DNA from: a virus
IMG/VR virus record: IMGVR_UViG_3300030430_003122
Location: 1-64,000 of that record
DNA: 64,000 nucleotides
Reading direction: 5' to 3' (one strand)
Notes under the pieces: generated by a model
Told to the model about the DNA's origin: nothing
The model's input: the letters and a program-made list of their open reading frames with translations, nothing else
Database searches by the model: none
Program-made: the position numbers and the translations under genes
Shown: in pieces, positions 513-51,530 of the stretch
How positions within the stretch are numbered: position 1 is the stretch's first letter
How the letters are laid out: the number at the start of each line of letters is the position of its first letter

Positions 513-2291
513 ATGGCAGGAAAAGCATTTACAAATTTAAACAAGATCTTTCTATCGGATACCTTTCGTGCGTGGTTTGATAAAACAAACCAAATCATAA
601 GCACAATTAACCCGCTCGAAATCTACGGTGTCACCGCTGGTGTCGGCGAAGTCGCTGGCATCACTATGGAATTCAATACTGACGGAACAGTGACCATTGG
701 TCTTGACCTACCGGACGCACTTACAGGTGACTTTAGTTTTAATACTGGGGTAACTTTTAACAATTTTATAAGTGTCGCTGGTCTGACTGTAGACTTTTCT
801 GCGAACGGAGGACATGGTGCGACTTTAACCGGTCGAGTTGTCCGCACCATCAACGGAGCAACGGGAGATGTCGCTCTGGATTTTGTTGCTATCCCCGGAA
901 ACTCTGCGGACGGTGATATACTCTACTATGAGAACACAGGGGCGGGGGCAACCTTCCGTTCCTATAACTTGTTCTCAGATGGAACCGCTGATAACGGCAT
1001 GGTTCATGTTGGCGGTAGTGGTGGTGTTTTCTTCGGCATCACCGCAGGCGGTGCCTCTTCGGCAAATGAATTTGTAAAACTAGGGAACATTCAACTTGTA
1101 GGCACAACCGCCTCTGGTATCTACATGGTTGATAACTCACAAACATCCCTAAGCACTGCGAAGATCGCCGGTGCAGACATTCGCTACGGCACGGAGGGTA
1201 GTTCACAGTTACTCACTATCGGTGGTAGGAATATTAGTGGGACTAAACACTCCACGAACAACCTTATTTTAGATTTTAATAATCAGACCACGACGGTTGG
1301 TGGTGGAGTGACTGGAAACGGTTCCCTAAACATCGGAGACGCGAGTAACTTCGGAAGACCCATTCTCTATACGGACAACGGTGGGGAAACATTTGCTCTT
1401 CGATACCTTTTAGTAAACGAAAAGGGCGGTAGGACATCCGGCGGATCTGCTGGTGTCGCTGCCCTCGGAGGAAACCCATCAACCAAGGGACTTTCGGATG
1501 TTGGCAAGCGGATTCGACTGGAGCATGACGCTGCCTCTGTTGAAGTTGAAATTTCTGGTCCGGGCAAAACCTCTGGTTTTGTAGTTTATGGTCAAGAGGA
1601 ATCTGGACATGTTTACGGCGACTTGCTTCTTCCAACGCTTGTTGCAAGAAAAGACGGAAACGTTGTAATTGGTGGTATTGCTCCAGATGATGGTGGTATC
1701 ACAGGAACAACATTTGGTAGTCTCAACGTTCCTAGTGGTAAATTATATCTTGGAGGAAAGATTGGAGAGTCTGCCACCAAGGGAATGCAAATCATCACCA
1801 GTAATGGTGTAACCGCTGGATGGACCTCACTATCAAGCACGGCATTTAACTACGTTGGGACAATTTCCTCCTTGAATGATACTACCGCCTCTCTAGGCGA
1901 AAGTCCATCAGTCTCAGAGAATTCAAGCAATACTATTTTGTTCAGGGATGAAAATAGGTTAGAGCAAACTGGTCCCTTTACAATTCAAGTAAACTTCCCG
2001 TTAGTTAAACTATCAGGAAAACAATCAAGAACTTATGATGCAGTTTTAGGTGTCGCAATAAATATAGATGGCACTCAAAAGTTAATGAGAGAAACTGTTT
2101 TGTGGAAAGATCTCCATGCACATGGGATAGATTCAATTTCTCCGACATTTGTGATGGCAGGTCAAGCGAATAAATTTGTAAGGATAACACCATTCGCCAC
2201 ACTTAGACTAACTACTGCGAACGGTGCTGACGAGAGATTTTCATATGTTATTCCCGGAACTTACACAGCAACATTCAATAAGATAGGTTAA
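513..2291 (+). CDS. Gly/Thr-rich virion (fibre/baseplate-associated) protein
   Basis: N-terminal SDTFRAWFDKTN motif typical of T4-like fibre N-termini; beta-rich G/T composition; lies in the tail module. Confidence 0.6.
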   Translation: MAGKAFTNLNKIFLSDTFRAWFDKTNQIISTINPLEIYGVTAGVGEVAGITMEFNTDGTVTIGLDLPDALTGDFSFNTGVTFNNFISVAGLTVDFSANGGHGATLTGRVVRTINGATGDVALDFVAIPGNSADGDILYYENTGAGATFRSYNLFSDGTADNGMVHVGGSGGVFFGITAGGASSANEFVKLGNIQLVGTTASGIYMVDNSQTSLSTAKIAGADIRYGTEGSSQLLTIGGRNISGTKHSTNNLILDFNNQTTTVGGGVTGNGSLNIGDASNFGRPILYTDNGGETFALRYLLVNEKGGRTSGGSAGVAALGGNPSTKGLSDVGKRIRLEHDAASVEVEISGPGKTSGFVVYGQEESGHVYGDLLLPTLVARKDGNVVIGGIAPDDGGITGTTFGSLNVPSGKLYLGGKIGESATKGMQIITSNGVTAGWTSLSSTAFNYVGTISSLNDTTASLGESPSVSENSSNTILFRDENRLEQTGPFTIQVNFPLVKLSGKQSRTYDAVLGVAINIDGTQKLMRETVLWKDLHAHGIDSISPTFVMAGQANKFVRITPFATLRLTTANGADERFSYVIPGTYTATFNKIG

Positions 2292-2292
2292 A

Positions 2293-3357
2293 ATGGCACT
2301 ATACTCAGGAAATGTAAATGGTAATACTCGAACGTTTGTTTTCTCCGCCACAGGCGGAACAAACGCTAATTTCGTAACGACTATTGGTGCTGGTGCTTCC
2401 ACCGGTGATTATGTCTCCGCTGGTGGAGACACCTTTGGCACTACAGCGGAGATTAGATCGTTTCGTGGAAACGTGGCATATTTAAACTATAAAAGAAACA
2501 CCACCGAGGTTAGAACAGAACTTTTACCAAGTGGTGGTATAACCTTCACAGAGGAAGATGTTATTCCTGATCCAAGAATTGTCGTTGGATTTTTGGTGGG
2601 AGAGGGAATAACTGGTCACCACATGGATGAGATTCACTATCAGAGTGGTGCTGGAAATGTTGAGGCATTTCTTGGTCGATTAACCTACTCTAGCGGTTCT
2701 ACTCTAGTCCCTGAAGGTTCAGCACTAATTGAACTTGTTGCCCCCGGTCTTACGGGAGTTACTACCCCAAATAGAGATGACCCGGACCCACTTAAAGATA
2801 TTTTTACTGTCGCTGCTGGGAATACCATCGAAAATAAAACAAATGGTATGGTAAGTTCAAATACAACCGGTTCAACTTTTACCAGCACCGCTACTTTTGT
2901 TCGAGTGCCTGTTCCCACTTATAAAAACGTAATTTTAGGTCAAGTTAGGGGTAGTGTTGAGTCTGCTGGTTTAGACTCTAACGGTCTCACTGGTATCACC
3001 ATCGGAGATGCTACTCACCTAAGACACGTTATGGTCGAACTAGGATCTAAAGAATTAAATGAATTTTTAAATAAATCAGCACACGTTAGAAATAACAATG
3101 CAATAACTGGTGACTCTTCCCGAGTTGGACAAATATTTACGTCTACAGGTATTTCAGGAACCACTATCTCAAACAAGGGGATCCTACTCAACGCGGTTAC
3201 TGGTGGAACGGTGGCGGGAACTAGTGTTTTGCAAGAGTTTGCCGCTAAGGTAGCAAACGCTGAATTTCAATTAGACCTAGATGAGAGGACCACTGTAGAG
3301 AAAATCTTAAATCAAACCTCTGTTCGTGGAATTGATCAGATCCCATTCACTTCTTGA
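2293..3357 (+). CDS. Hypothetical Gly/Thr-rich virion protein
   Basis: 354-aa ORF between fibre gene and gp13; many GxT motifs. Confidence 0.5.
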   Translation: MALYSGNVNGNTRTFVFSATGGTNANFVTTIGAGASTGDYVSAGGDTFGTTAEIRSFRGNVAYLNYKRNTTEVRTELLPSGGITFTEEDVIPDPRIVVGFLVGEGITGHHMDEIHYQSGAGNVEAFLGRLTYSSGSTLVPEGSALIELVAPGLTGVTTPNRDDPDPLKDIFTVAAGNTIENKTNGMVSSNTTGSTFTSTATFVRVPVPTYKNVILGQVRGSVESAGLDSNGLTGITIGDATHLRHVMVELGSKELNEFLNKSAHVRNNNAITGDSSRVGQIFTSTGISGTTISNKGILLNAVTGGTVAGTSVLQEFAAKVANAEFQLDLDERTTVEKILNQTSVRGIDQIPFTS

Positions 3358-3382
3358 CATTCTCGCTCCATACATATATTAT
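3354..3382 (+). promoter_or_regulatory. Overlapping sigma70-like promoter (TTGACA-17-TATTAT) and late-type CATACATA box upstream of gp13
   Basis: TTGACA 3354-3359, TATTAT 3377-3382, CATACATA 3369-3376; AAGGAG RBS follows. Confidence 0.5.
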
Positions 3383-4655: not shown

Positions 4656-5499
4656 TCCATACTTTCGTAAAGCAGTTCGCTCAGAGCAAGACCTTATTGA
4701 TGATCTTTCTATTGAAGTGATCAAAATCAATGGGTTTGATATGATATATCTCCCGCGAACTCTTGTGAGAGAGGATGAAATTTTCGGTGAAGACAGAACT
4801 CCCTCTAGATTTAGCACTGGTAGAGAAATTGAAATGCTCGTCGAATCAGTCGATGGTTTTGAAGGAGACGGAGAGGTCTTTGGCAGATTTGGTCTTGAGA
4901 TTAAAGATAATGTTTCTCTGCTTGTTTCAAAAACAAGATTTGAAAAAGAGTTTTCTGATCTTGGGTTCAAGGAACCAAGAGAAGGTGATCTGATCTATTT
5001 CCCCATATCAGGTGGTCTTTTTGAAATTGATTACGTTGAGAGAGAAAATCCATTCTATCAACTTAACAAGATTAATACGTTCAAGTTAACTTGCTCGCTT
5101 TTCCGTTTCAGTGGAGAGGATTTCCAAACTGGGTTCTCAGTGGTCGATGGTGTCACTAGTGATCACCTCGATCAATTGCAAACTCTTGTGCTTGGTGCGG
5201 GGACAGGAAACTACACAGAGGGAGAGACTGTTATTCAGGGTGCGGGTTCCACAATCGCTGCTCTCGTTCAGGAGTGGAAGTCCGCCAGCAAAACTCTTTT
5301 CGTCAACGGTATTACCGGTGCGTTCCAAGTTGGTGTTACCGTTGAGGGTCAGTCCTCCGGAACCAAGTATCTTCTTGGAAGCACCGGAACCACCAACGAG
5401 TTCGTTGTCCCCGACGCTGATGAGGATAACACCGAATTTGAAAGTAACGCATTGTTCGACTTTACAGACCTCGATCCGTTCTCGGAGGGTGACCTATAA
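4645..5499 (+). CDS. gp14: Neck protein gp14
   Basis: MATNPYF, SEQDLIDDL, YLPR, PREGDLIYFP, PFYQL; synteny. Confidence 0.95.
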   Translation: MATNPYFRKAVRSEQDLIDDLSIEVIKINGFDMIYLPRTLVREDEIFGEDRTPSRFSTGREIEMLVESVDGFEGDGEVFGRFGLEIKDNVSLLVSKTRFEKEFSDLGFKEPREGDLIYFPISGGLFEIDYVERENPFYQLNKINTFKLTCSLFRFSGEDFQTGFSVVDGVTSDHLDQLQTLVLGAGTGNYTEGETVIQGAGSTIAALVQEWKSASKTLFVNGITGAFQVGVTVEGQSSGTKYLLGSTGTTNEFVVPDADEDNTEFESNALFDFTDLDPFSEGDL

Positions 5500-6347
5500 T
5501 GTTTGAAACATTTTATAACGAAACTATAAGAAACACCGTCATTGGGTTTGGTTCTTTATTCAATGAGATATTTGTAAGCAGAAAAGACTCAGACGGAAAC
5601 GAGACGAGTAGATTTAAAGTCCCGATTACATACGCACCAAAAGAAAAGTTTATTCGTATGCTTAACGAATACTCTGGTCTCAAGGGAACAGCGAACGAGC
5701 GTGATATATCAACTATTTTGCCGAGAATTGGTTTTAACATAGAGGCGATAAATTATGATTCTGAGAGAAAAAGAAACACCCTCTCAAAAAGATATACTGC
5801 TAGTTCAACATCAAATCAAATTAAGTTTGAGTATGCAGAGGTTCCGTACTCGATAGACTTCTTTCTAACCATTGCGTCTAGAACTATGGAAGACGCTCTA
5901 CAAATAATAGAGCAAATTCTCGCATTCTTCACACCAGAGTTTATTGTTTCCATAAACTTCACTGACGCTAGAAATAAAATAGATGTGCCGATTACTCTGA
6001 CTTCGGTTGCCTCAGAGGTTGACTTCGAGGGTGATACATCAACACAAAGATCCATAGTTTTTAATCTATCTTTCACCGCGAGAACATATGTTTACGGTCC
6101 AACTAAAGAAAGCAAGGTTATTACAAAAGTCGATACGACTTTCTTCAACGCAGACTTCGACTCGCAAGGTGTCACCGGGGCAACCGGCGCACTGGCACGG
6201 GTCATCGCTGGTATCACCGGACCTAATGGACTAACGTCTGATATCAATGAATATACTGGAGTAAATGTATTCGGGTCAACAACTGACAGAGCAAATTCTA
6301 TCTTTGAGTATCCAAATACGCTTGACTCACTAGGAGCAACAATATGA
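5499..6347 (+). CDS. gp15: Tail sheath stabiliser/terminator gp15
   Basis: FYNETIR..FGSLFN, VPITYAPKEKF, LPRIGF, LQIIEQIL; synteny. Confidence 0.95.
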   Translation: MFETFYNETIRNTVIGFGSLFNEIFVSRKDSDGNETSRFKVPITYAPKEKFIRMLNEYSGLKGTANERDISTILPRIGFNIEAINYDSERKRNTLSKRYTASSTSNQIKFEYAEVPYSIDFFLTIASRTMEDALQIIEQILAFFTPEFIVSINFTDARNKIDVPITLTSVASEVDFEGDTSTQRSIVFNLSFTARTYVYGPTKESKVITKVDTTFFNADFDSQGVTGATGALARVIAGITGPNGLTSDINEYTGVNVFGSTTDRANSIFEYPNTLDSLGATI

Positions 6348-41749: not shown

Positions 41750-42286
41750 ATGATGAAAAATGCGTTAATGATGACATGGGAACAATATCAAGATCACGAA
41801 GTAATCTACCCATACTATAGGGTTATTGAAGAAGGATTTAGTATTGATATCATGGCCAATGTTAAGGGAAGAATTCATGGAATTCTTGGCACTTACATGG
41901 AAAGCACAAGAACAGTAAGTGAACTTGATACTTCTTATGATGAGATCATGGATGAGTATGACTTATTGATAATTCCCGGCGGAGTTAAGTCGCTCGAAAA
42001 ATTACGACAAGAACAGAAAGCATTGGATTTCATTGCAGACTGGGACAGTAGAAATAAAACTATAGCGTGCATCTGTCACGGTGGACAGATGTTGATTTCA
42101 TCCAAGATAACTGAAGGTCGTGATGTTTCCGGTTATTACAGTATTAAAGATGATTTGATTAATTCTGGTGGTAATTATGTTGATGCTCCGGCAGTTGTAT
42201 CTAACAATCTCGTTTCATGTCCCCATTACAAGTGGATGGGTGAATGGATGTCATCTGTTTTTGACGTATACAACGAAAGGAATTGA
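41750..42286 (+). CDS. DJ-1/PfpI family protein
   Basis: DHEVIYPY, IIPGG, CICHG nucleophile elbow. Confidence 0.85.
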   Translation: MMKNALMMTWEQYQDHEVIYPYYRVIEEGFSIDIMANVKGRIHGILGTYMESTRTVSELDTSYDEIMDEYDLLIIPGGVKSLEKLRQEQKALDFIADWDSRNKTIACICHGGQMLISSKITEGRDVSGYYSIKDDLINSGGNYVDAPAVVSNNLVSCPHYKWMGEWMSSVFDVYNERN

Positions 42287-42969
42287 TGTTGTCCCACAAT
42301 AACAACATTGTGAAAAAACCGTGGGGTCATGAATACCTTTGTTATGAAAATGAACATGTCGGACTTTGGTTTTTATTCATAGAGAAGGATCACCAAACGT
42401 CACTTCACTGTCATCCTAAAAAAACTACAGGGTTGGTTCTTTTAGACGGTGAGGCAGAAATTTCATTTTTAGCAGATAAACGCACTATGAAATCAATTGA
42501 TAAGTTGATGATTAGGCGGGGACTGTTTCACTCTACTAAATCTTTATCAGATGGGGGGAGTTTTATTTTTGAAATAGAAACCCCGGTGGACAAAAAGGAT
42601 TTGGTTCGATTGAATGACAAGTATGGTCGCACCAGCAAACCATACGAAGACAGCAGTTTTGAATCGGCAAAGAATGAAGATTGCTTATGGATAGAAGAAC
42701 CCGATGTTGATAAATCAAATCACTATGATTTTTCAAATTGTAAATTGACTGTTGAAAATATTAGTAGTTTGGATTCTATTATTGAAAAGAAGGACGATGA
42801 CATTATAGTTTTTCTTCGTGGTGGCATGATTCGCACCATTGACGACATATCTCATTGTGTCACAGTGCCGGGTGATGTTGGTAAAGGAAACATTGTAAAG
42901 AAAGTGGCCCAGCAATTGGATGGGTTGAAACCAGAAACAATCATAATGACAATTAATAAGAATGATTAA
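42286..42969 (+). CDS. Cupin-domain protein (sugar-phosphate isomerase-like)
   Basis: KKPWGHE, TSLHCHPKK, FH, EIETP, DLVRLNDKYGR. Confidence 0.75.
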   Translation: MLSHNNNIVKKPWGHEYLCYENEHVGLWFLFIEKDHQTSLHCHPKKTTGLVLLDGEAEISFLADKRTMKSIDKLMIRRGLFHSTKSLSDGGSFIFEIETPVDKKDLVRLNDKYGRTSKPYEDSSFESAKNEDCLWIEEPDVDKSNHYDFSNCKLTVENISSLDSIIEKKDDDIIVFLRGGMIRTIDDISHCVTVPGDVGKGNIVKKVAQQLDGLKPETIIMTINKND

Positions 42970-43465
42970 ATCACTAAAAACATTGTGTGAAGAGCATGAA
43001 ATTTTCATGTTTGATCTTGATCGGACGGTATTTGATACTCACACGAAAATGGGCGAACCCATTTGGGCAAAACAAATGATAAATCCATTAATTAATCTTG
43101 ATACAGACACTATTCGAGATGATTGTTTTTCTTTGTGTAAATTACAATCTGGTATTCGTTCTGTGTTAAGTTATTTACAGATTCATAATAAAAAACTTGG
43201 TTTTATATCACGGGGTGGGATATTTGATTTGGATTATGAAAAGCAACCCTCTGTTTTATTACTGAAAAATTTTGGGATTTATGATTACTTTTCGTATAAA
43301 AAAATCTTACTATACAAAGATGATAATAAGGCGGATCAATTATCTGAGATAGGATCTTGTGTATTTTTTGATGATATGGATAGAGATCTTGATTCTGCCA
43401 GAAAATTGGGTGGGATCGAGGTTTGTGATAGAAAACAATTTGAAACATGGGAAGATTTACTTTGA
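42962..43465 (+). CDS. HAD-family phosphatase (magnesium-dependent phosphatase-1-like)
   Basis: FDLDRT motif I, FISR, K, FFDD. Confidence 0.75.
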   Translation: MIKSLKTLCEEHEIFMFDLDRTVFDTHTKMGEPIWAKQMINPLINLDTDTIRDDCFSLCKLQSGIRSVLSYLQIHNKKLGFISRGGIFDLDYEKQPSVLLLKNFGIYDYFSYKKILLYKDDNKADQLSEIGSCVFFDDMDRDLDSARKLGGIEVCDRKQFETWEDLL

Positions 43466-45255
43466 TGAAATTGTCAGATTATGTCTTTGATTTTATGTCG
43501 GAAAAATCAATCGATACTATTTTTTCTGTATCAGGAGGGGCGGCCGCCCATCTATTAAACTCTGTTGCAGAAAGAAACGATTTTAAATTCATATGCAATT
43601 ATCATGAACAATCGTGTGCGATGGCAGCAGAGTCTTATGCCAGATTGATGAATAAACCTGCATGTGTTTTGTTGACAAACGGACCCGGATCGACAAACGC
43701 AATAACAGGGGTCTCTGGTGCTTACGGTGAATCAATTCCAATGATTGTTATTTCTGGGCAAGTTCCAACTAACTTATCTTTGAATATTTTATCAAACGAC
43801 ATTAATCTCAGACAACTTGGTGTGCAAGAGTGTGACATCATTAGTTCGGTCAAGTGCATGACAAAGTATGCTACTCAAGTTACAGATCCAAAAAGAATAA
43901 GATATCATTTGGAAAAAGCATATCATCTGGCAACAACTGGCAGAAAAGGACCGGTGTGGTTAGACATTCCATTGGACATTCAGAATGCCCAGATTGAACC
44001 AGAAGAGTTAATTGGTTATGAACCAGAAGATACACCACGTTTCTCATATGATATGGATGAATTAATTCAATTAATTTGTAATGCAAAAAAACCTGTCATA
44101 GTTACAGGTAATGGAATACATTTATCCAATACTGAAAAATTGTTTTTGGAATTAAAAGAGAAACTTCAGATTCCCATAGTTTCGACATGGACATCAAAAG
44201 ATTTGATGAACTTTGATGATGAATTGTTTGTGGGTAACTTCGGCATAATGGGAGAGCGATCTGCAAATTTGTCGATTCAAAATTCTGATTTGCTACTAAT
44301 TTTAGGGAGCAGATTGTCCGTTCCAAATACTGGATATAACTACAATTCATTTTCACCAGATTCAACAAAAATAATGGTGGACATAGATGCGAATGAGTTA
44401 AACAAACCAACTCTTAAAATAGATTTTCCAATAAATGAAAACTTAAATGTTTTTCTTTCCGGTCTACTTTCTAAGTTACAAGACGTTGACTTGCCTAGTT
44501 ATGAGACTTGGAAAAATTTAACACAGTCTTGGAAGTTAAAATATCCTGTTTTCCAAGAGGAGTATAAAAACAACAAGTCTAAAATAAACTCGTTCTACTT
44601 TATGGAAGTTCTCTCCGATAAGTTAACTGAAGATAGCATTGTTGTTACTGATATGGGAACCAGTTTTACTTGTTCTATGCAATCTCTGAAGATGAATGGA
44701 CATAATAGACTGTTTACTTCAAGTTCCCAGTCTTCAATGGGATATGGATTACCGGGCGCAATTGGATCATATTTTGCACAACCAGACAAAAATATTATAC
44801 TGATAGCGGGTGATGGCGGATTTCAGATGAACATACAAGAATTACAATGTGTGGTTCACTATAACATACCAATTAAAATGTTTATTCTCAATAATAATGG
44901 ATACTTAGCCATTTCTTTGATGCAAGATAATTTGTTTAACAGTAAATATATTGGATCAAACACTCAAAGTGGTGTTAGTAGTCCTGATTTTACCAAGGTG
45001 TCGGATGCATACGGTATTAAAAGTTTTAAATTCAACAATAATACCGAACTAGAAAATCATATAGATGAAGTTTTGAATTACGAAGGGACTGCATTGTGTG
45101 AAATAATGATGACAGAAAACCAATTATTGGTTCCTCGTGTTCAGAGTAAAAAAGATAATTGTGGTAATATACAATCAACAACTTTGGACGATATGTTCCC
45201 GCATTTGAGTAATGATGAAAAGGAAAGTATAAAGATGGAAATTAATAGTATATGA
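43465..45255 (+). CDS. ThDP-dependent enzyme (acetolactate synthase fold, YerE-like)
   Basis: HEQSCAMAAESY, TNGPGSTN, GPVWLDIP, MGYGLPGAIG, GDGGFQMNIQEL..NN. Confidence 0.88.
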   Translation: MKLSDYVFDFMSEKSIDTIFSVSGGAAAHLLNSVAERNDFKFICNYHEQSCAMAAESYARLMNKPACVLLTNGPGSTNAITGVSGAYGESIPMIVISGQVPTNLSLNILSNDINLRQLGVQECDIISSVKCMTKYATQVTDPKRIRYHLEKAYHLATTGRKGPVWLDIPLDIQNAQIEPEELIGYEPEDTPRFSYDMDELIQLICNAKKPVIVTGNGIHLSNTEKLFLELKEKLQIPIVSTWTSKDLMNFDDELFVGNFGIMGERSANLSIQNSDLLLILGSRLSVPNTGYNYNSFSPDSTKIMVDIDANELNKPTLKIDFPINENLNVFLSGLLSKLQDVDLPSYETWKNLTQSWKLKYPVFQEEYKNNKSKINSFYFMEVLSDKLTEDSIVVTDMGTSFTCSMQSLKMNGHNRLFTSSSQSSMGYGLPGAIGSYFAQPDKNIILIAGDGGFQMNIQELQCVVHYNIPIKMFILNNNGYLAISLMQDNLFNSKYIGSNTQSGVSSPDFTKVSDAYGIKSFKFNNNTELENHIDEVLNYEGTALCEIMMTENQLLVPRVQSKKDNCGNIQSTTLDDMFPHLSNDEKESIKMEINSI

Positions 45256-45289
45256 ATGTATTAATTATGGTTGATTGGGGTTATTCGAT

Positions 45290-46141
45290 ATGATAGTGCA
45301 AGTTACTCTTACCCGAGACGAATTATTTTTAATTAAAGAGATGTTACCACAGTGGCAAAAGTACGCAGATGCTTTTGTTTTTATGGTTGATAGATCCGTT
45401 GATGGGACATATGAGTTCCTAATGGAAAATAAAGAAAAGTATAATATTCTCAGTGTTTTACAAACTAACTGGGAGATGGATGGGTTAACTGTAGAAACTG
45501 ATGAGAGACAAAGATTGTATGATGAAGCATTCAAACACAGTGGAAAAATCATATGTCTCGATACTGATGAATACATTGATGGTAATGTCACCAAGGAACA
45601 ACTGGAGGATATCTTAGAGGCAAACAAAAATACTGTATTCAAAGCACCGTGGATACAATACACATCAAAAGATACTCATAGGGTAGATGGTCCTTGGAGA
45701 AACAACTACCATGAGAGAATTGGTTCATATCAACAAAGAGGAAAATTTAAACAAGCAGTGAGGCATTCAGAACATATACCATCGAGTGATAATTCACTTG
45801 CGTTTAATTATCCTGATTTATTCATCGCACATCTTCAGTGGTTGGATAAAAAAACTGTTGGTGTTAAACAATATTATTGGAAGATTTCTGATTATGTTGC
45901 ACAAAGAGAACATGGTGCTGAGATCATATCGTCCGCTTGTTATGATGATTCTGTTAATAATTTCAACTGGGAGTATTCTAGTATTGACTTCCCTCTAAAG
46001 GTAAATGAAAATGTGTATGGTAAAAACAATCTAGAGGATAGTTTTAAATACAAATATATCATGGAATATATTAAAAAATATGACATCCCAAATATGAACG
46101 ATTGGGGTATGGGGATTCACTCGGGGGAAATATTCAAGTGA
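45290..46141 (+). CDS. Putative GT-A fold glycosyltransferase
   Basis: RDE, VDRSVDGT, LDTDE (DxD), IAHLQW. Confidence 0.6.
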   Translation: MIVQVTLTRDELFLIKEMLPQWQKYADAFVFMVDRSVDGTYEFLMENKEKYNILSVLQTNWEMDGLTVETDERQRLYDEAFKHSGKIICLDTDEYIDGNVTKEQLEDILEANKNTVFKAPWIQYTSKDTHRVDGPWRNNYHERIGSYQQRGKFKQAVRHSEHIPSSDNSLAFNYPDLFIAHLQWLDKKTVGVKQYYWKISDYVAQREHGAEIISSACYDDSVNNFNWEYSSIDFPLKVNENVYGKNNLEDSFKYKYIMEYIKKYDIPNMNDWGMGIHSGEIFK

Positions 46142-46944
46142 AAATTTTAATAACAGGAGGCAATGGATACATTGCTAAAAGTCTTCATGAAAAATTCTCT
46201 GATAAGTATGATATAACCAGTGTGAGCAGAAAAGACTTTGATCTCTCAGACCCCATCGAAACCTTTAAGTGGTTCGAGGATAAAAAATTTGATGTTGTCA
46301 TCCACACCGCGATAGTTGGGGGAAATCGATTACAAGAAGACGACCATGAGATAACGAAACAAAATTTGTTAATGTATTATAATCTAATGCAAAATAAAAA
46401 GTCTTTTGGTAGATTACTTTCGTTTGGGTCTGGTGCAGAGGTCACAAGAACAAACACTCCATATGGGTTGAGTAAACGACTGATCGCAGACTCTATAGCA
46501 GAAACAGAAAACTTTTACAATATAATCATATTTGCGGTCTTTGATGAAAATGAATTAGATAGAAGATTTATCAAATCCAATATCAAGAGATATATCGAAA
46601 ACAAACCTATGATTGTTCATTCGGATAAGGTTATGGACTTCTTTTATATGGAGGATCTATGTTCTCTCGTTGATTACTACATCCAAAGAGTTTCCCCTCC
46701 AAAAGAAATTAACGCTTCGTATGAAAATAAATACTCACTTCGAGACATTGCAAACATGATAAACCAGTTGGGAAAACATATAGTTCCTGTTGAAATAAAA
46801 AACGAACATGACCCGGAAGTTTATGCTGGGTCTTCTGATCTACCAATTAAATGTGTTGGGTTGTTTAGGGGAATCGAAAAAACATATTTGACTTTGAAAA
46901 AACAGTCTGGTATAGTATGCACGGAAAATATATCACATGGTTAA
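46138..46944 (+). CDS. NAD-dependent epimerase/reductase (SDR)
   Basis: TGGNGYIA, GSGAE, YGLSK, DFFYMEDL; GTG start overlapping upstream TGA. Confidence 0.8.
   Translation: MKILITGGNGYIAKSLHEKFSDKYDITSVSRKDFDLSDPIETFKWFEDKKFDVVIHTAIVGGNRLQEDDHEITKQNLLMYYNLMQNKKSFGRLLSFGSGAEVTRTNTPYGLSKRLIADSIAETENFYNIIIFAVFDENELDRRFIKSNIKRYIENKPMIVHSDKVMDFFYMEDLCSLVDYYIQRVSPPKEINASYENKYSLRDIANMINQLGKHIVPVEIKNEHDPEVYAGSSDLPIKCVGLFRGIEKTYLTLKKQSGIVCTENISHG
46888..46916 (+). promoter_or_regulatory. Sigma70-like promoter for rfbH
   Basis: TTGACT-17-TATAGT with extended -10 TG. Confidence 0.55.
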
Positions 46945-48262
46945 TTTAACATCACAGAAACAACAAGAAGAAATCGCAGAATTAGTATCCAAGTATAGAG
47001 ATAGAAAAGAATGGACTCCGGGTGACTGGGTACAATATGCTGGACCATATTTCACCGACGAGGAGTTTATCAAAACCATCGAGTGTCTGTTAGGTGGTTG
47101 GTTGGTTCTTGGCGAAAAGGGTCTTCGCTTTGAGAGAAAATTTAAGAGATGGTTTGATAAGGGATATGGTGCGTTGACCAACAGTGGATCTAGTGCGAAC
47201 CTTCTCATGATCTCTTCCTTGAAGTCAAAGAGATTATACAATTTCAAAGAGGGAACCAAGATCATAACTCCGGTCGCAGGATTTCCTACCACACTAAATC
47301 CTATTTTACAGAATGGGTATGAACCTGTTTTTGTTGATATTGAAATTGATACGCTTAATCTAAACGTTGATCAACTAGAAGACGCAGCAAAGAGTGGAGC
47401 AAAAGCGATAACGTTCGCACATGTATTGGGCAACCCACCAAACATGGATAGAGTGATGGAGATTGTTCGAGACTATGATCTTATTCTACTAGAGGATACA
47501 TGTGACGCATTGGGTTCAACCTATGATGGAAAACTTCTAGGATCGTTCGGTAACTTCGCTTCTTGTTCTTTTTATCCTGCCCACCATATTACAATGGGAG
47601 AAGGTGGTTTTGTCGCCTGCTCCACTAAAGAGGAGGAGACGGTTGTTAAGTCACTCAGGGAATGGGGACGCGGGTGTTATTGTGCTGGTGAAAAAGCATC
47701 ATGTCTTAAGAATGGTATGTGTGGTAAAAGGTTCTCTCCTTGGATCGACTCAATGCCAGATACTATTTTTGACCACAAATACTTGTATGAAGAAATCGGA
47801 TACAACCTCAAACCAATGGACCTACAGGCAGCAATGGGATTGGTTCAACTAGACAAACTTGAGGAAATTATTGCCTTGCGTAAGAGAAACTATAAGGCAT
47901 ATTTCGATACCTTTCACAAGTATGAAGATTATTTTCACTTGCCCAGACCACAAGATAAAGCAGATCCCTCTTGGTTTGCGTTTCCACTCACGGTTCGAGA
48001 TAATGCTCCTTTTGATAGAAAAGACTTTACTCTGTGGTTAGAGGAGAATAAAATCCAAACCAGAAACTACTTTGCAGGTAATGTGTTGTTGCAACCTGCG
48101 TACACACATCTATATCCAAATATAGATGCCAAAACAAAATATCCAGTGGCGACAAAGGTGATGAAAGACACATTTTTCCTCGGAACCAGTCCTGTCATCA
48201 CAGAAGAACAGACTAAATATGTTTGTTCAACCGTAGACAAATTTTTTGAAACAAGGAAGTAA
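46937..48262 (+). CDS. rfbH: CDP-4-keto-6-deoxyglucose 3-dehydratase (E1, DdhC/RfbH)
   Basis: NSGSSANL, EDTCDALGS, SFYPAHHITMGEGG (His replaces PLP Lys), WGRGCYC..C..C Fe-S motif, DHKY. Confidence 0.9.
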   Translation: MVNLTSQKQQEEIAELVSKYRDRKEWTPGDWVQYAGPYFTDEEFIKTIECLLGGWLVLGEKGLRFERKFKRWFDKGYGALTNSGSSANLLMISSLKSKRLYNFKEGTKIITPVAGFPTTLNPILQNGYEPVFVDIEIDTLNLNVDQLEDAAKSGAKAITFAHVLGNPPNMDRVMEIVRDYDLILLEDTCDALGSTYDGKLLGSFGNFASCSFYPAHHITMGEGGFVACSTKEEETVVKSLREWGRGCYCAGEKASCLKNGMCGKRFSPWIDSMPDTIFDHKYLYEEIGYNLKPMDLQAAMGLVQLDKLEEIIALRKRNYKAYFDTFHKYEDYFHLPRPQDKADPSWFAFPLTVRDNAPFDRKDFTLWLEENKIQTRNYFAGNVLLQPAYTHLYPNIDAKTKYPVATKVMKDTFFLGTSPVITEEQTKYVCSTVDKFFETRK

Positions 48263-48265: not shown

Positions 48266-49651
48266 ATGAGTGCAAGACCAAATGGCGTGACAGTTACACT
48301 GTGCATGATCGTAAAAGATGAAGAGCATATTATCCATGAGTGTTTGGATTCGATGCGTCCGTATATTGACCGATACGATATTACCGACACGGGATCAACC
48401 GACAGAACCAAAGAAATTATCAAAGAGTGGGGTGAGAAGAATAATATTCCCGGAACTGTTTATGATGCACCTTGGCGTGGGTTTGGTAAGTCTCGCACAG
48501 AATCTTTGAGAAACGCAGACAAGGGTGGTGCTGACTACTCTTGGGTCATCGATGCAGATGATTGTGTTCGTGGTAATTTTGTCTATCCACCCCAGTTTGG
48601 TGAACACGCTGCATATACCCTTAAGATTCATCGTGGTGACTTTGAATGGTGGCGTAATCAAATTTTTAAGAACAACATGGAGTGGGAGTATGTTGGTGTT
48701 ATTCACGAATATGCAAACAGTCCTAAACTCGCTGATTGTGGTCTGGGTGTTGCTCGACTACTCGGTGACTACAATATTGACGCTAGAACAATGGGCAATC
48801 GAACCAAGGAGTTTGATGTTAAGTTAGAAGAAGGTCAAACAGAAGAACCCGGAAAAGAATCTTGGAGGAAAAAGTATCTCCATGACGCTGCAACTTTGCT
48901 AGACTGCTTAACCAATCCCGAAAACGAAAATTACGAACCCGACAATTTAAGATATTATTTCTACCTAGCACAGTCATACTTTGATGGTGGTGACTTTGCC
49001 AGTGCGAAGGAGTGGTATACCAAGAGAGCAGAGAAGGGCGGTTGGGAAGAGGAGCAATGGTATTCTGTTCTTCGTGTTGCAATGTGCATGACTAATCTCG
49101 GAGAGAAGTGGCAGGATACTCAAGACGTATTTTTGCAGGCGTATAACCTCAGACCGCAGCGAGTTGAGTCACTCTTCAACCTTGCAAGAATTCATCGGAT
49201 GAATGGAAACCCAAGACTTGGGTATCTTTTTGCAAAAATGGGTGCTGGAACTCAAGTGCCACCCGAGGATGTATTGTTTGTCGCTAAAGATGTTTTCGAG
49301 TGGCAAATTTATGATGAACTCGCGTCCACCGCTTGGTATGCCAATGATATGCAGGCAGGACTTGCAGCGTCAAACAAACTTCTCACCGAAAAGTTGTACC
49401 CGCAAGAGCATCATGAAAGAATCATGAATAACTGGAAAAATTATGTTGCCTATTTTGAAAAAATAGAAGAAGAGAAAAAGCAAAGAGAAGCAGAGGCAAC
49501 TAAGCAAAAAATACTCAATGATGAATCCCAAAAAGCAGAGTCCGCTAAAAGGAAAGAGCAAACCAAAATTCGAGAGCAACAGAAGAAGATAAATAAGAGG
49601 AGACAGAAACAAAAAGCAGCGTCTAAGTCTCGCAAAGCATCGAGGAGATAA
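48266..49651 (+). CDS. GT2 glycosyltransferase with TPR repeats and basic coiled-coil tail
   Basis: LCMIVKDEE, DTGSTD, FGKSR, IDAD, GVIHE; TPR-like YFYLAQSY; Lys/Arg-rich C-terminus. Confidence 0.88.
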   Translation: MSARPNGVTVTLCMIVKDEEHIIHECLDSMRPYIDRYDITDTGSTDRTKEIIKEWGEKNNIPGTVYDAPWRGFGKSRTESLRNADKGGADYSWVIDADDCVRGNFVYPPQFGEHAAYTLKIHRGDFEWWRNQIFKNNMEWEYVGVIHEYANSPKLADCGLGVARLLGDYNIDARTMGNRTKEFDVKLEEGQTEEPGKESWRKKYLHDAATLLDCLTNPENENYEPDNLRYYFYLAQSYFDGGDFASAKEWYTKRAEKGGWEEEQWYSVLRVAMCMTNLGEKWQDTQDVFLQAYNLRPQRVESLFNLARIHRMNGNPRLGYLFAKMGAGTQVPPEDVLFVAKDVFEWQIYDELASTAWYANDMQAGLAASNKLLTEKLYPQEHHERIMNNWKNYVAYFEKIEEEKKQREAEATKQKILNDESQKAESAKRKEQTKIREQQKKINKRRQKQKAASKSRKASRR

Positions 49652-49653
49652 AC

Positions 49654-50118
49654 ATGCCCGCCGGAAGACATGATATAAGTGCCGAACAAGGTGTGACTTT
49701 TAAGTTGCATTTAAACTATAAGGATTCAAACACTAACCTTGTAGACCTTGCAACATATACTGCTAGAATGCAAGTTAGAAGATCACCCGAAGATTCCGAT
49801 CTTCTTCTTTTCGTCACTGGTTCTACCATGAACAATACCACCGGTGTGGTTCACAGTGGTTCTTTAACAGGCGGTGGTGTAACCGGTGATTTTTCCACTG
49901 GTAGTGGAATCGCTGGAGTTGGAGATCTAAAACTAAATTCAAATGCAGACGGATCAACCAATGGTGGAACGGGTGGTATTTTAATTAGTATGGATGCCAC
50001 TAGCATGGCAAATTGTCCCAAAGGAAATCATTTTTACGATTTAGAAATTATTAGCGGAACTGATGTCACTCGTTTGATTGAGGGAAGATTTTCTGTTGAT
50101 AGAGAAATCACAAGATGA
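49654..50118 (+). CDS. Putative virion fibre adaptor protein
   Basis: [28 protein letters not shown] pattern typical of small phage structural proteins preceding fibres. Confidence 0.6.
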
Positions 50119-51530
50119 GTAACAAGATAACCATCAACACAAATGCACCGAATAAGGTGGAGGTTACTGCCACACCTAATAATATCACGGTGACTCAATC
50201 TTCTCCACAGAAAGAGACGATTGAAGTATCACAAGGTATCATTGCCGCTGGTGTCGCTGGTGCCGATGGTTCTGATGGTTCTGATGGTGTAACCGGATCG
50301 ACCGGGGCAACTGGGGCAACTGGGGCGACCGGATCGACCGGGGCAACTGGATCAACCGGTGCAACTGGATCAACCGGTGCGACTGGTGCTACCGGTATTC
50401 CCGCAGGAGTTCGTTTTCAGGTCACAACGACTTCCGGGGATGTTTCTGCTGGAGACGCTGCTTCACATGGTCAGGTGTTTTTTGCCTCGAACAATTCAAG
50501 TTTTAGAATTGCAAGCACCGACATAAATGCAGTTGATGTTAGTGCTATGGTTCATGGTTTAGGTGAGGGTAGTTTCTTAATATTCACAAATGATCTTGGA
50601 ACAAAAGAAAGAATCATTAGGATAAATGCACTCGCCTTCAGCATCGGTCTCGATTCCACTCCAAACGTCGCTAGTTACAATTCCATAACATACATTAAAC
50701 AAAGTGGATCAGTATTTTCTGATAACGAATTTGTAACAGTGAGTAGAGTTCTTGCTGGTGTGACTGGTGCTGCTGGTGCTACCGGTGCAACTGGGGCAAC
50801 TGGACTTGATCAGGTTGATACTGGTTTGACTCTCATTGAGGGATCTAGCGGTGTTACACTTGGTATTGATCCAACCTCGACCATTCATGTAGCAGGAGTA
50901 TCTTCGGATGGTGGAGCGACATTAGGTAGTTCACTTAGAGTTACAACTGCCGACAGCGATGGGGTTGCAGTTGAGGTGCCTAGCGGCGGAAGAATTCGCA
51001 ATACAAATGGTGGACCACAGGTTCACATCAAGTCAAATCAAGTTCAAATTTTACCATTGAACTCTGCCAGTTCTGGACTACATGTTACAGAGGACTTGGT
51101 GAAATCGAATAAGTTGGTTCACACCGTCGAAGGTATCTCTATGGATACCTCTGGCATCACCTTCCCCGATGGAACTCACCAGTCCAGTGCATCATCTGGT
51201 TCTATCTCAGAAATCACGGACTCATATGTTGGTCACATCGAACATGTGTTGAATAAAACATATTTCATCGATGCTAGGTTGGTTGCTGCGAGAACCATCA
51301 CTGAATTTTTTGCCTTCGCCTCTACTGGAGGTTGCACGGCGGAATTGCATGGCAACGGAAACTCAATCGGAACTATCATATTAAACCCAGATAGTCAGGG
51401 TGTCACCGGAGCAACGACACAATCCAGTTTAGCAAACACAACGATACCAGTAGGCAGCACTCTACAGTTTACGGTGAGTGGAAACACTCTCGCGGAAGAT
51501 TTCAGATTTGCGATTGGATACACACAATGA
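50115..51530 (+). CDS. Collagen-like fibre protein
   Basis: Two Gly-X-Y tracts; GITFPDGT fibre motif; C-terminal beta domain. Confidence 0.8.
50250..50402 (+). repeat. 17 consecutive Gly-X-Y triplets, 12 of them G-x-T
   Basis: [51 protein letters not shown]. Confidence 0.95.
50757..50810 (+). repeat. Second short collagen tract
   Basis: [18 protein letters not shown]. Confidence 0.85.

What the first reader, a model, noticed from the sequence alone, without database searches (positions are those of the whole stretch)
513..51530. Candidate phage-encoded virion O-glycosylation system with a shared G-x-T sequon
Seen: the tripeptide G-[V/I/L/A/F/S]-T recurs in unrelated, probably surface-exposed virion proteins, often in extensions added to conserved T4 folds. 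By-eye counts: 11 G[VILA]T in 513..2291; 6 G[VIL]T plus GST/GNT in 2293..3357; GVT, GST, GIT, GVT, GST, GTT in the gp14 tail; 6 in the last ~60 aa of gp15 (GVT GAT..GIT..GLT..GST..GAT); 9 GxT in the ~180-aa gp18 insertion; GAT/GST in a gp23 loop; GVT/GST in the 49654 adaptor; over 20 in the collagen fibre. The motif is nearly absent from portal, terminase, scaffold and replication enzymes. The window also carries ~11 glycosyltransferases, sugar-nucleotide enzymes and a GT2-TPR. Known: GT2-TPR proteins include protein O-glycosyltransferases, and GxT collagen repeats are the glycosylated region of Bacillus anthracis BclA. Inference: the phage tags many virion proteins with a Thr acceptor motif and builds a glycan coat, for shielding, adhesion or mimicry.
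Basis: partly seen in the sequence, partly recalled or inferred. Interest (0 to 1): 0.9.

Follow-up and report, generated by a model that had tools for sequence, protein, structure and literature searches.

The report
Phage virion sugar-coating system, G-x-T sites
An uncultured marine T4-like phage carries a sugar-making gene island ending in a protein-glycosylating enzyme next to a threonine-rich collagen-like fibre, and the same short Gly-x-Thr site is twice as common as chance in its other outer virion proteins, so it probably sugar-coats its fibre and perhaps much of its particle, though no sugar has been measured.

Summary
All by-eye counts reproduce.

- **Enrichment.** In 15 virion proteins GxT occurs 99 times against 49 expected (z 7.8). 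That is the strongest of all 400 a-x-b patterns. In 53 non-virion proteins it is 46 against 49.
- **Controls.** The excess survives removal of collagen tracts (83/45) and of the whole fibre (73/40). It is Thr-specific (GxS 35/35), in-frame only, and its Thr is more conserved than other Thr.
- **Enzyme.** The GT2-TPR (48266..49651) resembles the Listeria flagellin O-GlcNAc transferase GmaR. It has the architecture and gene order of C. difficile SgtA-BclA3.
- **Neighbours.** In 17 of 23 related phage loci a GxT-rich ORF, collagen-like where read, follows it. In 28 of 80 bacterial loci a Thr-rich collagen gene lies nearby.
- **Comparison.** Four genomes with the enzyme show virion ratios of 1.6-1.84 and a fifth shows 1.2. 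Four complete genomes without it show 0.6-1.15.
- **Counter-example.** Jumbo phage Tunturi_5 has the enzyme and a GxT collagen fibre but no wider enrichment (0.95).

Fibre glycosylation is likely (about 0.7). A virion-wide sequon is plausible (about 0.45). This scan had already noted the enzyme-collagen pair on other phage DNA; the virion-wide motif is the new part.

The parts
513..2291 (+). 592-aa Gly/Thr-rich virion protein of no known family, two genes upstream of gp13. It holds 17 GxT.
   Evidence: No PHROG or Pfam hit. GxT is 17 vs 9.5, p 0.007-0.0085. Relatives keep a ratio of 1.6-2.3 in 11 of 11 distinct homologues. Thr in GxT has conservation 0.86 against 0.40 for other Thr.
2293..3357 (+). 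354-aa virion protein of no known family, directly upstream of gp13. It holds 15 GxT.
   Evidence: GxT is 15 vs 5.5, p 0.0005. The 9 distinct homologues, at 32-42% identity, keep 8-14 GxT against 3.8-5.4 expected. Thr in GxT has conservation 0.55 against 0.33. The AlphaFold model is poor, pLDDT 58.8.
5149..5499 (+). C-terminal part of neck protein gp14 (residues 169-284). It holds all 7 GxT of the protein.
   Evidence: phrog_460 head closure Hc2, E 2e-69, matches residues 1-198. GxT is 7 vs 2.3, p 0.0055. G and T are kept in position while x varies among 13 relatives.
6105..6347 (+). C-terminal tail of gp15 (residues 203-282). It holds 6 of the protein's 8 GxT.
   Evidence: phrog_227 tail sheath stabilizer, E 1.5e-67, matches residues 1-222. 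GxT is 8 vs 2.0, p 0.0005. The positions are conserved in relatives. The tail has pLDDT below 50 and little secondary structure, in an overall poor model.
8929..9471 (+). Variable middle region of sheath protein gp18 (about residues 150-330). It holds 9 of the protein's 12 GxT.
   Evidence: phrog_23 tail sheath, E 1.7e-122. In an alignment with T4, Syn9, Mosig and G001 the region falls at about T4 residues 110-345. G001 carries still more GxT there; Syn9, Mosig and T4 carry few. The whole protein is only marginal, p 0.02-0.10.
31962..48262 (+). Variable island of soluble glycosyltransferases and nucleotide-sugar enzymes.
   Evidence: Pfam hits: GT11 at 32552 and 37428, GT6 at 33397, GT10 at 34697, GT2 at 38234, and SDR epimerase/dehydratases at 36367, 39774, 40726 and 46102. 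A thiamine-pyrophosphate enzyme lies at 43447 and a DegT-type enzyme at 46937. The 46937 protein scores 465.9 bits against NCBIfam RfbH, cut-off 423. No island protein has a 19-residue window with Kyte-Doolittle mean of 1.6 or more. Content differs among relatives, while the 31962-like, GT11-like and GT10-like genes recur.
48266..49651 (+). GT2-TPR enzyme, the candidate initiating protein O-glycosyltransferase.
   Evidence: PF00535 E 3.7e-10; TPR_2, TPR_17 and ANAPC3 hits are below cut-off. The best solved relative is GmaR, E 1.8e-12 over residues 9-102. There is a weak SunS hit. 1279 relatives have E of 1e-10 or better. The family has an invariant D96-A97-D98-D99.
49654..50118 (+). 154-aa adaptor-like protein with a Gly/Thr/Ser-rich loop (5 GxT). 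It is the most constant neighbour of the GT2-TPR.
   Evidence: phrog_1084, E 3.4e-20. The protein atlas gives a BppU_N lead carried by 16% of one cluster's members. A homologue follows the enzyme in 16 of 23 loci, and also in G006, L143 and L165. GxT is 5 vs 2.3, p 0.05-0.09.
50115..51530 (+). 471-aa collagen-like fibre with (G-[A/S/V]-T)n tracts and 26 GxT.
   Evidence: PF01391 Collagen, E 3.7e-9, residues 46-94. It matches tail-fibre PHROGs. GxT is 26 vs 8.4, p 0.0005. Ten GxT lie outside the collagen tracts.
51527..52138 (+). 203-aa Gly-rich protein closing the fibre cassette. It is not GxT-enriched.
   Evidence: No family hit. GxT is 1 vs 2.1.

Best explanation
The window belongs to an uncultured marine T4-like myovirus with a self-contained, fully soluble system for O-glycosylating its own virion proteins.

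Proposed steps:
1. Nucleotide-sugar enzymes in 36367..48262 make unusual donors. These include an RfbH-type 3,6-dideoxyhexose step and a thiamine-dependent step.
2. In the infected cytoplasm, the conserved GT2-TPR (48266..49651), an enzyme of the GmaR/SgtA type, puts a first sugar on the Thr of G-x-T triplets.
3. The soluble GT11, GT6, GT10 and GT2 enzymes then extend the glycan.

The primary substrate is the (G-x-T)n collagen-like fibre encoded two genes downstream (my estimate about 0.7).

The same minimal G-x-T site has been selected in outward-facing, non-collagen parts of other virion proteins. These are 513..2291, 2293..3357, the gp14 and gp15 tails, the outer gp18 region and the adaptor loop. 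They would serve as further acceptor sites, giving the particle a glycan coat (about 0.45; the confidence given for this explanation is that of this full, wide reading).

Shown: the motif statistics, its conservation, the enzyme's kinship, the gene linkage, and the co-distribution across genomes. Inferred: every chemical step, the donor sugars, the order of the transferases, and any benefit of a coat.
For: **Motif statistics**
- GxT is the top pattern of 400 in virion proteins (99/49.2, z 7.8). In non-virion proteins it is at chance (46/49.3).
- It stays first after removing collagen tracts (83/45.0, z 6.4) or the whole fibre (73/40.4, z 5.6). GxS is at chance (35/34.6).
- It survives removal of every run of 2 or more GXY triplets (57/32.5, z 4.8).
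- It is in-frame only: 64 vs 28.2 at codon offset 0, but 1 vs 3.2 and 3 vs 4.1 at the other offsets. Codon use within the motif is mixed.
- Thr in GxT is more conserved than other Thr: 0.68 (n=59) vs 0.49 (n=178), p 1.5e-4.

**Enzyme and linkage**
- The enzyme is kin to GmaR.
- SgtA has the same layout and gene order, and acts on linear GAT/GPT peptides (PMC7157674).
- In 17 of 23 phage loci a GxT-enriched ORF follows the enzyme.
- In 28 of 80 bacterial loci a collagen gene with at least 10 triplets and at least 40% Thr at the Y position lies within 8 kb.
- Tunturi_5 has the enzyme 3.7 kb from a GPT/GAT collagen fibre.
- No island protein has a membrane segment.

**Co-distribution (collagen tracts masked in the ratios for the enzyme-bearing genomes)**
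- Enzyme present: window 1.84, G001 1.60 (157/98.2, rank 1/400), G006 1.65 (134/81.0, rank 1/400), G011 1.62.
- Enzyme absent from complete genomes: T4 0.91, Syn9 1.15, Mosig 1.01, G012 0.61.
- In a ranking of 41 loci made without regard to the enzyme, G011 came first and G012 last.
Against: - No chemical evidence exists.
- Tunturi_5 has a family member (E 2.2e-79) and a GxT collagen fibre, yet its 18 virion-module proteins give 93/97.9 outside collagen.
- G007 has the enzyme but only 179/149.2 (ratio 1.20, rank 13/400).
- Of 850 ORFs beside bacterial homologues, none shows a non-collagen excess.
- gp23, the most exposed protein, is not enriched in the window (2/3.8).
- In the low-confidence model of 2293..3357 many GxT sit at loop-to-strand junctions, as a structural motif would.
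- The enriched genomes lie outside one 33-row clade, but the base of the portal tree is unresolved. The association may therefore rest on one or two events.
- A few short loci inside the enzyme-free clade also reach 1.6-1.9 on small samples.
- SgtA also accepts Ser in vitro, whereas only Thr is enriched here.
Confidence: 0.45

Rival explanations
1. Only the collagen-like fibre is glycosylated. The GxT excess in the other virion proteins is a structural signature of folds peculiar to this lineage: Gly at a turn, a hydrophobic residue facing in, and a beta-branched Thr opening a strand. It has nothing to do with the enzyme.
For: - In the 2293..3357 model, GxT lies just before or at the start of strands E83-88, E178-181, E194-203 and E233-237.
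- The middle residue is mostly V, I, A, S or L.
- Positions are partly conserved, as structural residues are.
- Tunturi_5 and the bacterial neighbours show that the enzyme does not bring a wider excess with it.
- G007 is weak.
Against: - The excess spans unrelated proteins and contexts with no shared module.
- It includes a tail with no predicted structure and a Gly-rich loop.
- Beta-rich fibres of T4, Syn9 and Mosig show none.
- In the gp18 variable region the motif count is kept or raised in G001, partly at different positions.
- The model it rests on has pLDDT 58.8.
Confidence: 0.3
2. The island rebuilds a host surface polysaccharide (O-chain or capsule) during infection to block superinfection. 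This is the usual reading of such genes in marine myoviruses. The GT2-TPR may then act on a host protein.
For: - PMC7029224 (passages) reads glycosyltransferase clusters in pelagimyophages this way.
- The island is hypervariable like bacterial O-antigen loci.
- RfbH-type and dideoxyhexose enzymes are classic O-antigen enzymes.
Against: - None of the proteins from 31962 to 49651 has a membrane segment. So the island encodes no flippase, polymerase, ligase or priming transferase.
- The one constant gene of the island is a protein-type transferase fixed next to virion fibre genes.
- In L187, L190 and L191 the island, the enzyme, the adaptor and the fibre are all missing together.
- This reading does not explain the motif excess.
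Confidence: 0.15
3. The transferases hypermodify phage DNA, as T4 glucosylates hydroxymethylcytosine.
For: - A dUTPase/dCTP-deaminase-like gene (52156) and a weak DUF1599 'nucleotide modification associated' match (52653, E 9.3e-4, below cut-off) flank the cassette.
- Diverse DNA glycosylation by phage transferases is in print (listing only).
Against: - Those two genes are also present in relatives that lack the island and the enzyme.
- The families found (GT11, GT6, GT10, GmaR-like GT2) are not the known DNA glucosyltransferases; this point is recalled, not tested.
- This reading does not explain the fibre linkage or the motif.
Confidence: 0.03

Closest known systems
Clostridioides difficile SgtA with its exosporium substrate BclA3 (PMC7157674; passages read)
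   Same: Both have an N-terminal GT-A/GT2 domain and C-terminal TPR repeats. Both are soluble. In both, the gene lies just upstream of a Thr-rich collagen-like protein (GPT/GAT/GIT triplets). SgtA transfers a sugar to Thr of short linear G-x-T peptides.
   Different: Direct homology to SgtA itself was not tested; only the relative GmaR was matched. The phage enzyme is 461 aa against 358. Here the pair sits behind an island of at least five further transferases and a rare-sugar pathway. Here the motif also spreads to non-collagen virion proteins. SgtA accepts Ser too.
Listeria monocytogenes GmaR, flagellin O-GlcNAc transferase (PDB 22ao)
   Same: It is the best solved sequence relative of the catalytic domain, E 1.8e-12. 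It is a cytoplasmic GT2 enzyme that glycosylates Ser/Thr of a structural protein before assembly (function recalled).
   Different: The substrate is flagellin with no G-x-T rule (recalled). Only residues 9-102 align.
Bacillus anthracis BclA
   Same: It is a collagen-like surface filament whose GPT-type repeats carry O-linked oligosaccharides built from a dedicated rare-sugar pathway.
   Different: It is a spore protein. Its transferases are not known to me to be of the GT2-TPR type.
Mycobacteriophage virion glycosylation, Che8 and relatives (Freeman et al. 2023; the paper is not held; known from passages of PMC11256854 and the reference list of PMC12582341)
   Same: Phage-encoded glycosyltransferases attach glycans covalently to virion proteins and form a glycan shield.
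   Different: Those are siphoviruses of Actinobacteria, and the glycans are on major capsid proteins. No G-x-T sequon or collagen fibre is known to me from that work. Here the capsid protein is not enriched.
Glycosyltransferase clusters of pelagimyophages and cyanomyophages (PMC7029224; passages)
   Same: They occur in marine T4-like myoviruses, as variable clusters of transferases and deoxysugar enzymes near fibre genes.
   Different: That paper ascribes them to host O-chain modification. It does not mention the GT2-TPR ('tpr' occurs 0 times). It lists collagen repeats only as a domain of receptor-binding proteins.
Giant-virus fibril glycosylation, Mimivirus (PMC9614988; search listing and abstract only)
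   Same: These are virus-encoded sugar pathways and transferases that decorate virion fibres independently of the host.
   Different: They are eukaryotic viruses with different enzymes. No sequon is known to me.

Membership tests
SgtA/GmaR-type GT2-TPR protein O-glycosyltransferases | N-terminal GT-A (GT2) catalytic domain with an acidic DxD-type motif | tested here: met
   PF00535 E 3.7e-10, 40.4 bits against cut-off 23.3. GmaR E 1.8e-12. D96-A97-D98-D99 is invariant in 22 of 22 aligned family members.
SgtA/GmaR-type GT2-TPR protein O-glycosyltransferases | C-terminal tetratricopeptide repeats | tested here: inconclusive
   TPR_2 (E 6.9e-5), TPR_17 (2.5e-4) and ANAPC3 (3e-4) are all below the curated cut-offs. 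Precomputed TPR-type Pfam domains are listed for only some relatives. No usable structure model was made of this protein.
SgtA/GmaR-type GT2-TPR protein O-glycosyltransferases | Gene adjacent to a Thr-rich collagen-like substrate gene | tested here: met
   In the window the fibre starts 464 bases after the enzyme's stop. A GxT-enriched ORF follows in 17 of 23 phage loci. 28 of 80 bacterial loci have a nearby Thr-rich collagen gene. In G007 the fibre lies about 10 kb away, and in G006 no Thr-rich collagen is adjacent.
SgtA/GmaR-type GT2-TPR protein O-glycosyltransferases | Soluble cytoplasmic enzyme | tested here: met
   The maximum 19-residue Kyte-Doolittle mean is 0.64.
SgtA/GmaR-type GT2-TPR protein O-glycosyltransferases | Sequence homology to SgtA itself | not tested
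SgtA/GmaR-type GT2-TPR protein O-glycosyltransferases | Transfers a sugar to Ser/Thr of a protein | not testable with these tools
   This needs an enzyme assay.
Collagen-like (BclA-type) glycosylated filaments | Uninterrupted G-X-Y tracts with Thr at Y | tested here: met
   PF01391 E 3.7e-9, residues 46-94. The tracts read G-[A/S/V]-T. 69 residues lie in runs of 4 or more triplets.
Collagen-like (BclA-type) glycosylated filaments | Thr residues carry O-glycans | not testable with these tools
   This needs mass spectrometry.
Lipid-linked general O-glycosylation (PglL-type and Bacteroidetes-type; defining features recalled) | Membrane oligosaccharyltransferase, flippase and priming transferase | tested here: not met
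   No protein from 31962 to 52138 has a predicted membrane segment. If the system works, it works by stepwise cytoplasmic transfer.
Phage seroconversion systems (GtrABC type; defining features recalled) | Membrane flippase, bactoprenol transferase and a serotype-specific membrane transferase | tested here: not met
   There are no membrane segments in the island and no such Pfam family among the hits.
T4-like myoviruses | Syntenic gp13-gp23 structural module and T4-type replication genes | tested here: met
   PHROG and Pfam hits cover gp13, 14, 15, 16, 17, 18, 19, 20, 21, 22, 23, gp3, UvsY, UvsW, gp45, gp44, gp62-like, RegA, gp43 and UvsX. The portal is 52-53% identical to those of cyanophages and Pelagibacter phage Mosig.

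The most novel reading that the evidence does not exclude
A broad group of abundant marine T4-like phages runs a general, cytoplasmic, sequon-directed protein O-glycosylation system. An SgtA-like GT2-TPR reads a minimal G-x-T site. Evolution has sown that site across sheath, neck, whisker-position and fibre proteins, so the whole particle carries a glycan coat. Its composition is set by a fast-swapping sugar island, in effect a viral serotype. The 'LPS genes' of marine myoviruses would then largely serve the virion, not the host surface.
Probability: 0.3. Interest if true: 0.85.

Novelty: new variant of a known kind. Interest (0 to 1): 0.68.

Why it matters
Protein glycosylation of phage particles has so far been shown for a few mycobacteriophages. 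If this system is real, three things follow.

- It would be the first phage glycosylation system with a readable acceptor motif, so glycosites could be predicted from sequence.
- It would extend virion glycosylation to a large group of uncultured ocean myoviruses. The enzyme family has 1279 members at E of 1e-10 or better in the protein collection.
- It would overturn the usual reading of glycosyltransferase islands in marine T4-like phages as tools for remodelling the host surface (PMC7029224).

A glycan coat would bear on adsorption, particle stability, stickiness to marine gels and grazing losses.

The claim is directly testable with one recombinant enzyme and a few peptides.

Tried and rejected
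- **Close annotated relatives.** Megablast of two window stretches against 50,697 phage records found one 149-base capsid match and nothing else. No annotated close relative exists.
- **Shared module.** All-against-all BLASTP of 10 virion proteins, run without composition correction, gave only weak compositional matches. A shared duplicated module carrying GxT is rejected.
- **DNA-level signal.** The motif is in-frame only, so a DNA-level cause is rejected.
- **Periodicity.** Gaps between successive GxT are clustered, with short gaps 2-5 times over-represented, but show no single period.
- **Extended consensus.** Nothing beyond G-[V/I/A/S/L]-T was found, apart from a slight excess of G or F after it.
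- **Structure.** AlphaFold models of 2293..3357 (pLDDT 58.8) and gp15 (48.1), from 11-row alignments, were too poor for an exposure test. For that reason I ran no fold search on them.
- **Complex prediction not used.** An enzyme with its substrate is a poor case for it.
- **Independent replicates of the virion-wide excess.**
  - Tunturi_5 was negative.
  - Megaphage LR745206 has no GxT-rich ORF within 12 kb of its homologue.
  - Bacterial neighbourhoods were negative.
- **Sister lineage without the enzyme.** L187, L190 and L191 lack the whole cassette, but their contigs hold no structural module. The decisive comparison could not be made.
- **Literature.**
  - Searches for phage virion glycosylation, collagen-like plus glycosyltransferase plus phage, and cyanophage glycoproteins were. 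The listed titles and abstracts of these four showed no description of a G-x-T sequon or of a GT2-TPR with a collagen fibre in marine T4-like phages.
  - searched only for 'pelagimyophage'. The passages of PMC7029224 read do not mention the enzyme.
  - This covers only the held library.
  - Freeman et al. 2023 is not held.
  - No supplementary files were asked for.

Full report
**What the window is.** All genes read on the + strand.
- PHROG and Pfam searches identify a T4-type module: gp13 (3399), gp14 (4645), gp15 (5499), gp16, gp17, gp18 (8482, 777 aa), gp19, portal gp20 (11431), gp21, gp22 and gp23 (16151). A tail-tube-like gene in the gp3 position, UvsY and UvsW follow.
- After these come Dam, sliding clamp, clamp loader, RegA (31550), DNA polymerase (53087) and UvsX.
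- The portal is only 52-53% identical to those of cyanophages and of Pelagibacter phage Mosig. Megablast finds no close annotated relative.
- The contig is 86 kb and incomplete.

**The island.** Between RegA and the polymerase lies a glycan island.
- Transferases: GT11 twice, GT6, GT10 and GT2.
- Sugar enzymes in the island: four SDR epimerase/dehydratases (36367, 39774, 40726, 46102), a thiamine-pyrophosphate enzyme, and an RfbH-type enzyme scoring 465.9 bits against a cut-off of 423. A fifth SDR enzyme (25772) lies upstream of the island.
- The island ends with a GT2 enzyme carrying sub-threshold TPR matches.
- Three further ORFs give sub-threshold transferase hits.
- Next come a 154-aa adaptor-like protein, a 471-aa collagen-like fibre and a 203-aa Gly-rich protein.

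- Against 2000 shuffles per protein, five proteins exceed expectation at p of 0.0095 or less: 513..2291, 2293..3357, gp14, gp15 and the fibre. This holds whether residues are shuffled over the whole protein or within 30- or 15-residue blocks.
- gp18 and the adaptor are marginal. gp23 is not enriched.
- Pooled over 15 virion proteins, GxT occurs 99 times against 49.2 expected (z 7.8). It is the most over-represented of all 400 residue-x-residue patterns.
- In 53 other proteins it occurs 46 times against 49.3.

**Controls.**

| Control | Result |
|---|---|
| Collagen runs of 4+ triplets removed | 83/45.0, z 6.4, rank 1/400 |
| Whole fibre removed | 73/40.4, z 5.6, rank 1/400 |
| GxS, same set | 35/34.6 |
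| TxG, same set | 49/40.4 |
| Every run of 2+ G-X-Y triplets removed | 57/32.5, z 4.8 |
| GG....AC at codon offset 0 | 64 vs 28.2 |
| GG....AC at the other offsets | 1 vs 3.2 and 3 vs 4.1 |

- At DNA level there is also no excess on the reverse strand, and Gly and Thr codons within the motif are mixed. The signal is therefore at protein level.
- There is no extended consensus beyond a small or hydrophobic middle residue.
- The virion proteins share no duplicated module.
- In alignments of five protein families with 11-14 sequences each, Thr within GxT is kept in 0.68 of homologues against 0.49 for other Thr (p 1.5e-4). The effect is strongest in 513..2291 (0.86 vs 0.40) and absent in gp18 (0.53 vs 0.55).

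**The enzyme and its company.**
- The best solved relative of 48266..49651 is GmaR, the Listeria flagellin O-GlcNAc transferase (E 1.8e-12, residues 9-102). There is a weak match to the peptide glycosyltransferase SunS.
- The family has 1279 members at E of 1e-10 or better, and the top 120 come from environmental assemblies.
- Among 23 IMG/VR loci holding a relative (25-83% identity), 16 have the adaptor homologue downstream. In 17 the next or next-but-one ORF is GxT-enriched. Two pairs of these loci are near-duplicates.
- Where read, these ORFs are collagen-like tracts such as GATGNTGSTGTT.
- The island in front of the enzyme differs from locus to locus. The enzyme itself and the 31962-like, GT11-like and GT10-like genes recur.
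- A profile search of one genome per prokaryote species kept 80 of 586 confirmed loci. In 44 a collagen tract of at least 5 triplets lies within 8 kb. In 28 it has at least 10 triplets with at least 40% Thr at Y.
- These come from Streptomyces, Solirubrobacterales, Bacillus, Desulfosporosinus, Streptococcus, alphaproteobacteria and others. I had no random-window control for that rate.
- In the unrelated jumbo phage Tunturi_5 the homologue lies 3.7 kb from a 1469-aa tail fibre with eight GPT/GAT collagen tracts.
- This matches the one characterised pair. C. difficile SgtA has an N-terminal GT-A domain and four C-terminal TPR. It is encoded directly upstream of bclA3 and adds beta-O-GlcNAc to Thr, and also Ser, of linear 12-17-residue GAT/GPT peptides (PMC7157674, passages).
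- No protein from 31962 to 52138 has a membrane segment. The island therefore lacks the flippase, polymerase and priming enzymes of O-antigen synthesis.

**Does the wider motif go with the enzyme?** All ratios below are GxT observed over expected in virion proteins. Collagen is masked in the window, G001, G006, G011, G007 and Tunturi_5 rows.

| Genome | Enzyme | Virion GxT | Other ORFs |
|---|---|---|---|
| Window | present | 83/45.0 (1.84) | 46/49.3 |
| G001 (74 kb contig, enzyme 57% identical) | present | 157/98.2 (1.60), z 6.2, rank 1/400 | 33/35.7 |
| G006 (complete 147 kb, terminal repeats, 42% identical, no adjacent Thr-rich collagen) | present | 134/81.0 (1.65), z 6.6, rank 1/400 | 186/160.6; 115/121.1 once six fibre-like ORFs are set aside |
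| G011 (portal flanks) | present | 43/26.5 (1.62) | - |
| G007 (128 kb, fibre cassette moved about 10 kb away) | present | 179/149.2 (1.20), rank 13/400 | 90/86.3 |
| T4 | absent | 53/58.5 (0.91) | - |
| Syn9 | absent | 52/45.4 (1.15) | 21/19.1 |
| Mosig | absent | 54/53.6 (1.01) | 15/12.4 |
| G012 (complete) | absent | 5/8.2 (0.61) | - |
| Tunturi_5 | present | 93/97.9 (0.95) | - |

- The G006 module was defined by position only.
- In G007, gp15 (10 vs 2.2) and three other proteins stand out despite the weak pooled ratio.
- I ranked 41 portal-centred loci by virion GxT excess without regard to the enzyme. G011, the only one of five long contigs found to hold the enzyme, came first. G012 came last.
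- On a quick portal tree the enzyme-bearing lineages lie outside a 33-row clade (support 98) that holds Syn9, Mosig and G012. Ratios in that clade are mostly 0.6-1.4. The base of the tree is unresolved.
- Relatives L187, L190 and L191 have RegA almost next to the polymerase-side genes. They lack the island, the enzyme, the adaptor and the fibre together. Their contigs hold no virion genes.

**What speaks against the wide reading.**
- Tunturi_5 has both enzyme and GxT collagen, yet shows no excess outside collagen.
- None of 850 ORFs around the bacterial homologues shows a non-collagen excess.
- G007 is weak.
- gp23 is not enriched in the window, although it is in G001 (8 vs 3.5).
- Some short loci inside the enzyme-free clade reach 1.6-1.9 on 1200-2000 residues.
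- The co-distribution may reflect one or two ancestral events.
- Both structure models were poor. In the 2293..3357 model many GxT sit where a loop enters a strand, which fits a structural role as well as an exposed one. The gp15 tail has no confident structure.
- The gp18 motifs lie in the variable stretch aligned to about T4 residues 110-345. From memory of the T4 sheath structure, this forms the outward-facing domains.

**Most likely mechanism.**
1. The island makes nucleotide sugars.
2. The GT2-TPR starts a glycan on Thr of G-x-T in the cytoplasm before assembly.
3. The soluble transferases extend it.

The fibre is the primary substrate (about 0.7). The two-fold, Thr-specific, conserved excess of the same tripeptide in other outer proteins, in lineages with the enzyme, is best explained by secondary acceptor sites (about 0.45). 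A lineage-specific structural motif is the main rival (about 0.3). Host-surface remodelling (about 0.15) and DNA modification (about 0.03) fit the gene content less well.

**Relation to what is known.**
- The enzyme-collagen pair is a new member of the SgtA-BclA3 kind. This scan has already noted it on other phage DNA.
- Virion glycosylation by phage enzymes is established for mycobacteriophages.
- A minimal sequon spread over many virion proteins of marine T4-like phages is not in the titles and abstracts listed by the four searches. It is also not in the passages of PMC7029224 that I read. Those passages ascribe such islands to host O-chain modification.
- I class the finding as a new variant of a known kind.

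Noticed in passing
window 62462-63499: A 345-aa protein with an N-terminal hydrophobic segment (Kyte-Doolittle maximum 1.81 at residue 4) and a Gly/Tyr/Phe-rich, beta-barrel-like sequence ending in Phe, which looks like a phage-borne porin. G007 has a 45%-identical homologue in the same relative position.
   Followed up: partly
window 43447-48262: An RfbH-type enzyme above the NCBIfam cut-off lies next to an acetolactate-synthase-like thiamine enzyme and SDR enzymes. Together these suggest a 3,6-dideoxy, possibly branched-chain, sugar pathway. No cytidylyltransferase was identified.
   Followed up: partly
L187, L190, L191 (IMG/VR): In these relatives RegA is separated from the dUTPase-like, 52653-like and polymerase genes by only three small ORFs. 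The island, GT2-TPR, adaptor and fibre are absent as one block.
   Followed up: partly
G007 (L281-L287), 96381-97640 and 107813-110904 in the reverse-complement coordinates: The GT2-TPR is followed directly by the dUTPase-like gene. The adaptor and an 876-aa GxT collagen fibre (44 vs 17.5) sit about 10 kb further on, so the fibre cassette can move away from the enzyme.
   Followed up: partly
window 18841-20367 and homologues in G001, G006, G007: The UvsW helicase has 5 GxT against 1.4-2.3 expected in all four genomes. This is probably conserved helicase motifs and unrelated to the virion signal.
   Followed up: no
window 48266-49651, C-terminal ~60 residues: The family consensus ends in a Lys/Arg-rich tail that is absent from the 358-aa SgtA as described in PMC7157674. 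Its function is unknown.
   Followed up: no
contig G000, about 64.3 kb (just beyond the window): An ORF at 64257-65426 translates with a run of X, so the contig holds a short masked or undetermined stretch there.
   Followed up: no
window 50115-51530 residues 340-360, and L014, L018, L020: A recurring motif of the form G-I/L-T-F-x-D-G-T appears in the fibre and in fibres of relatives. From memory it resembles a phage tail-fibre repeat. It contributes a few structurally explained GxT.
   Followed up: no
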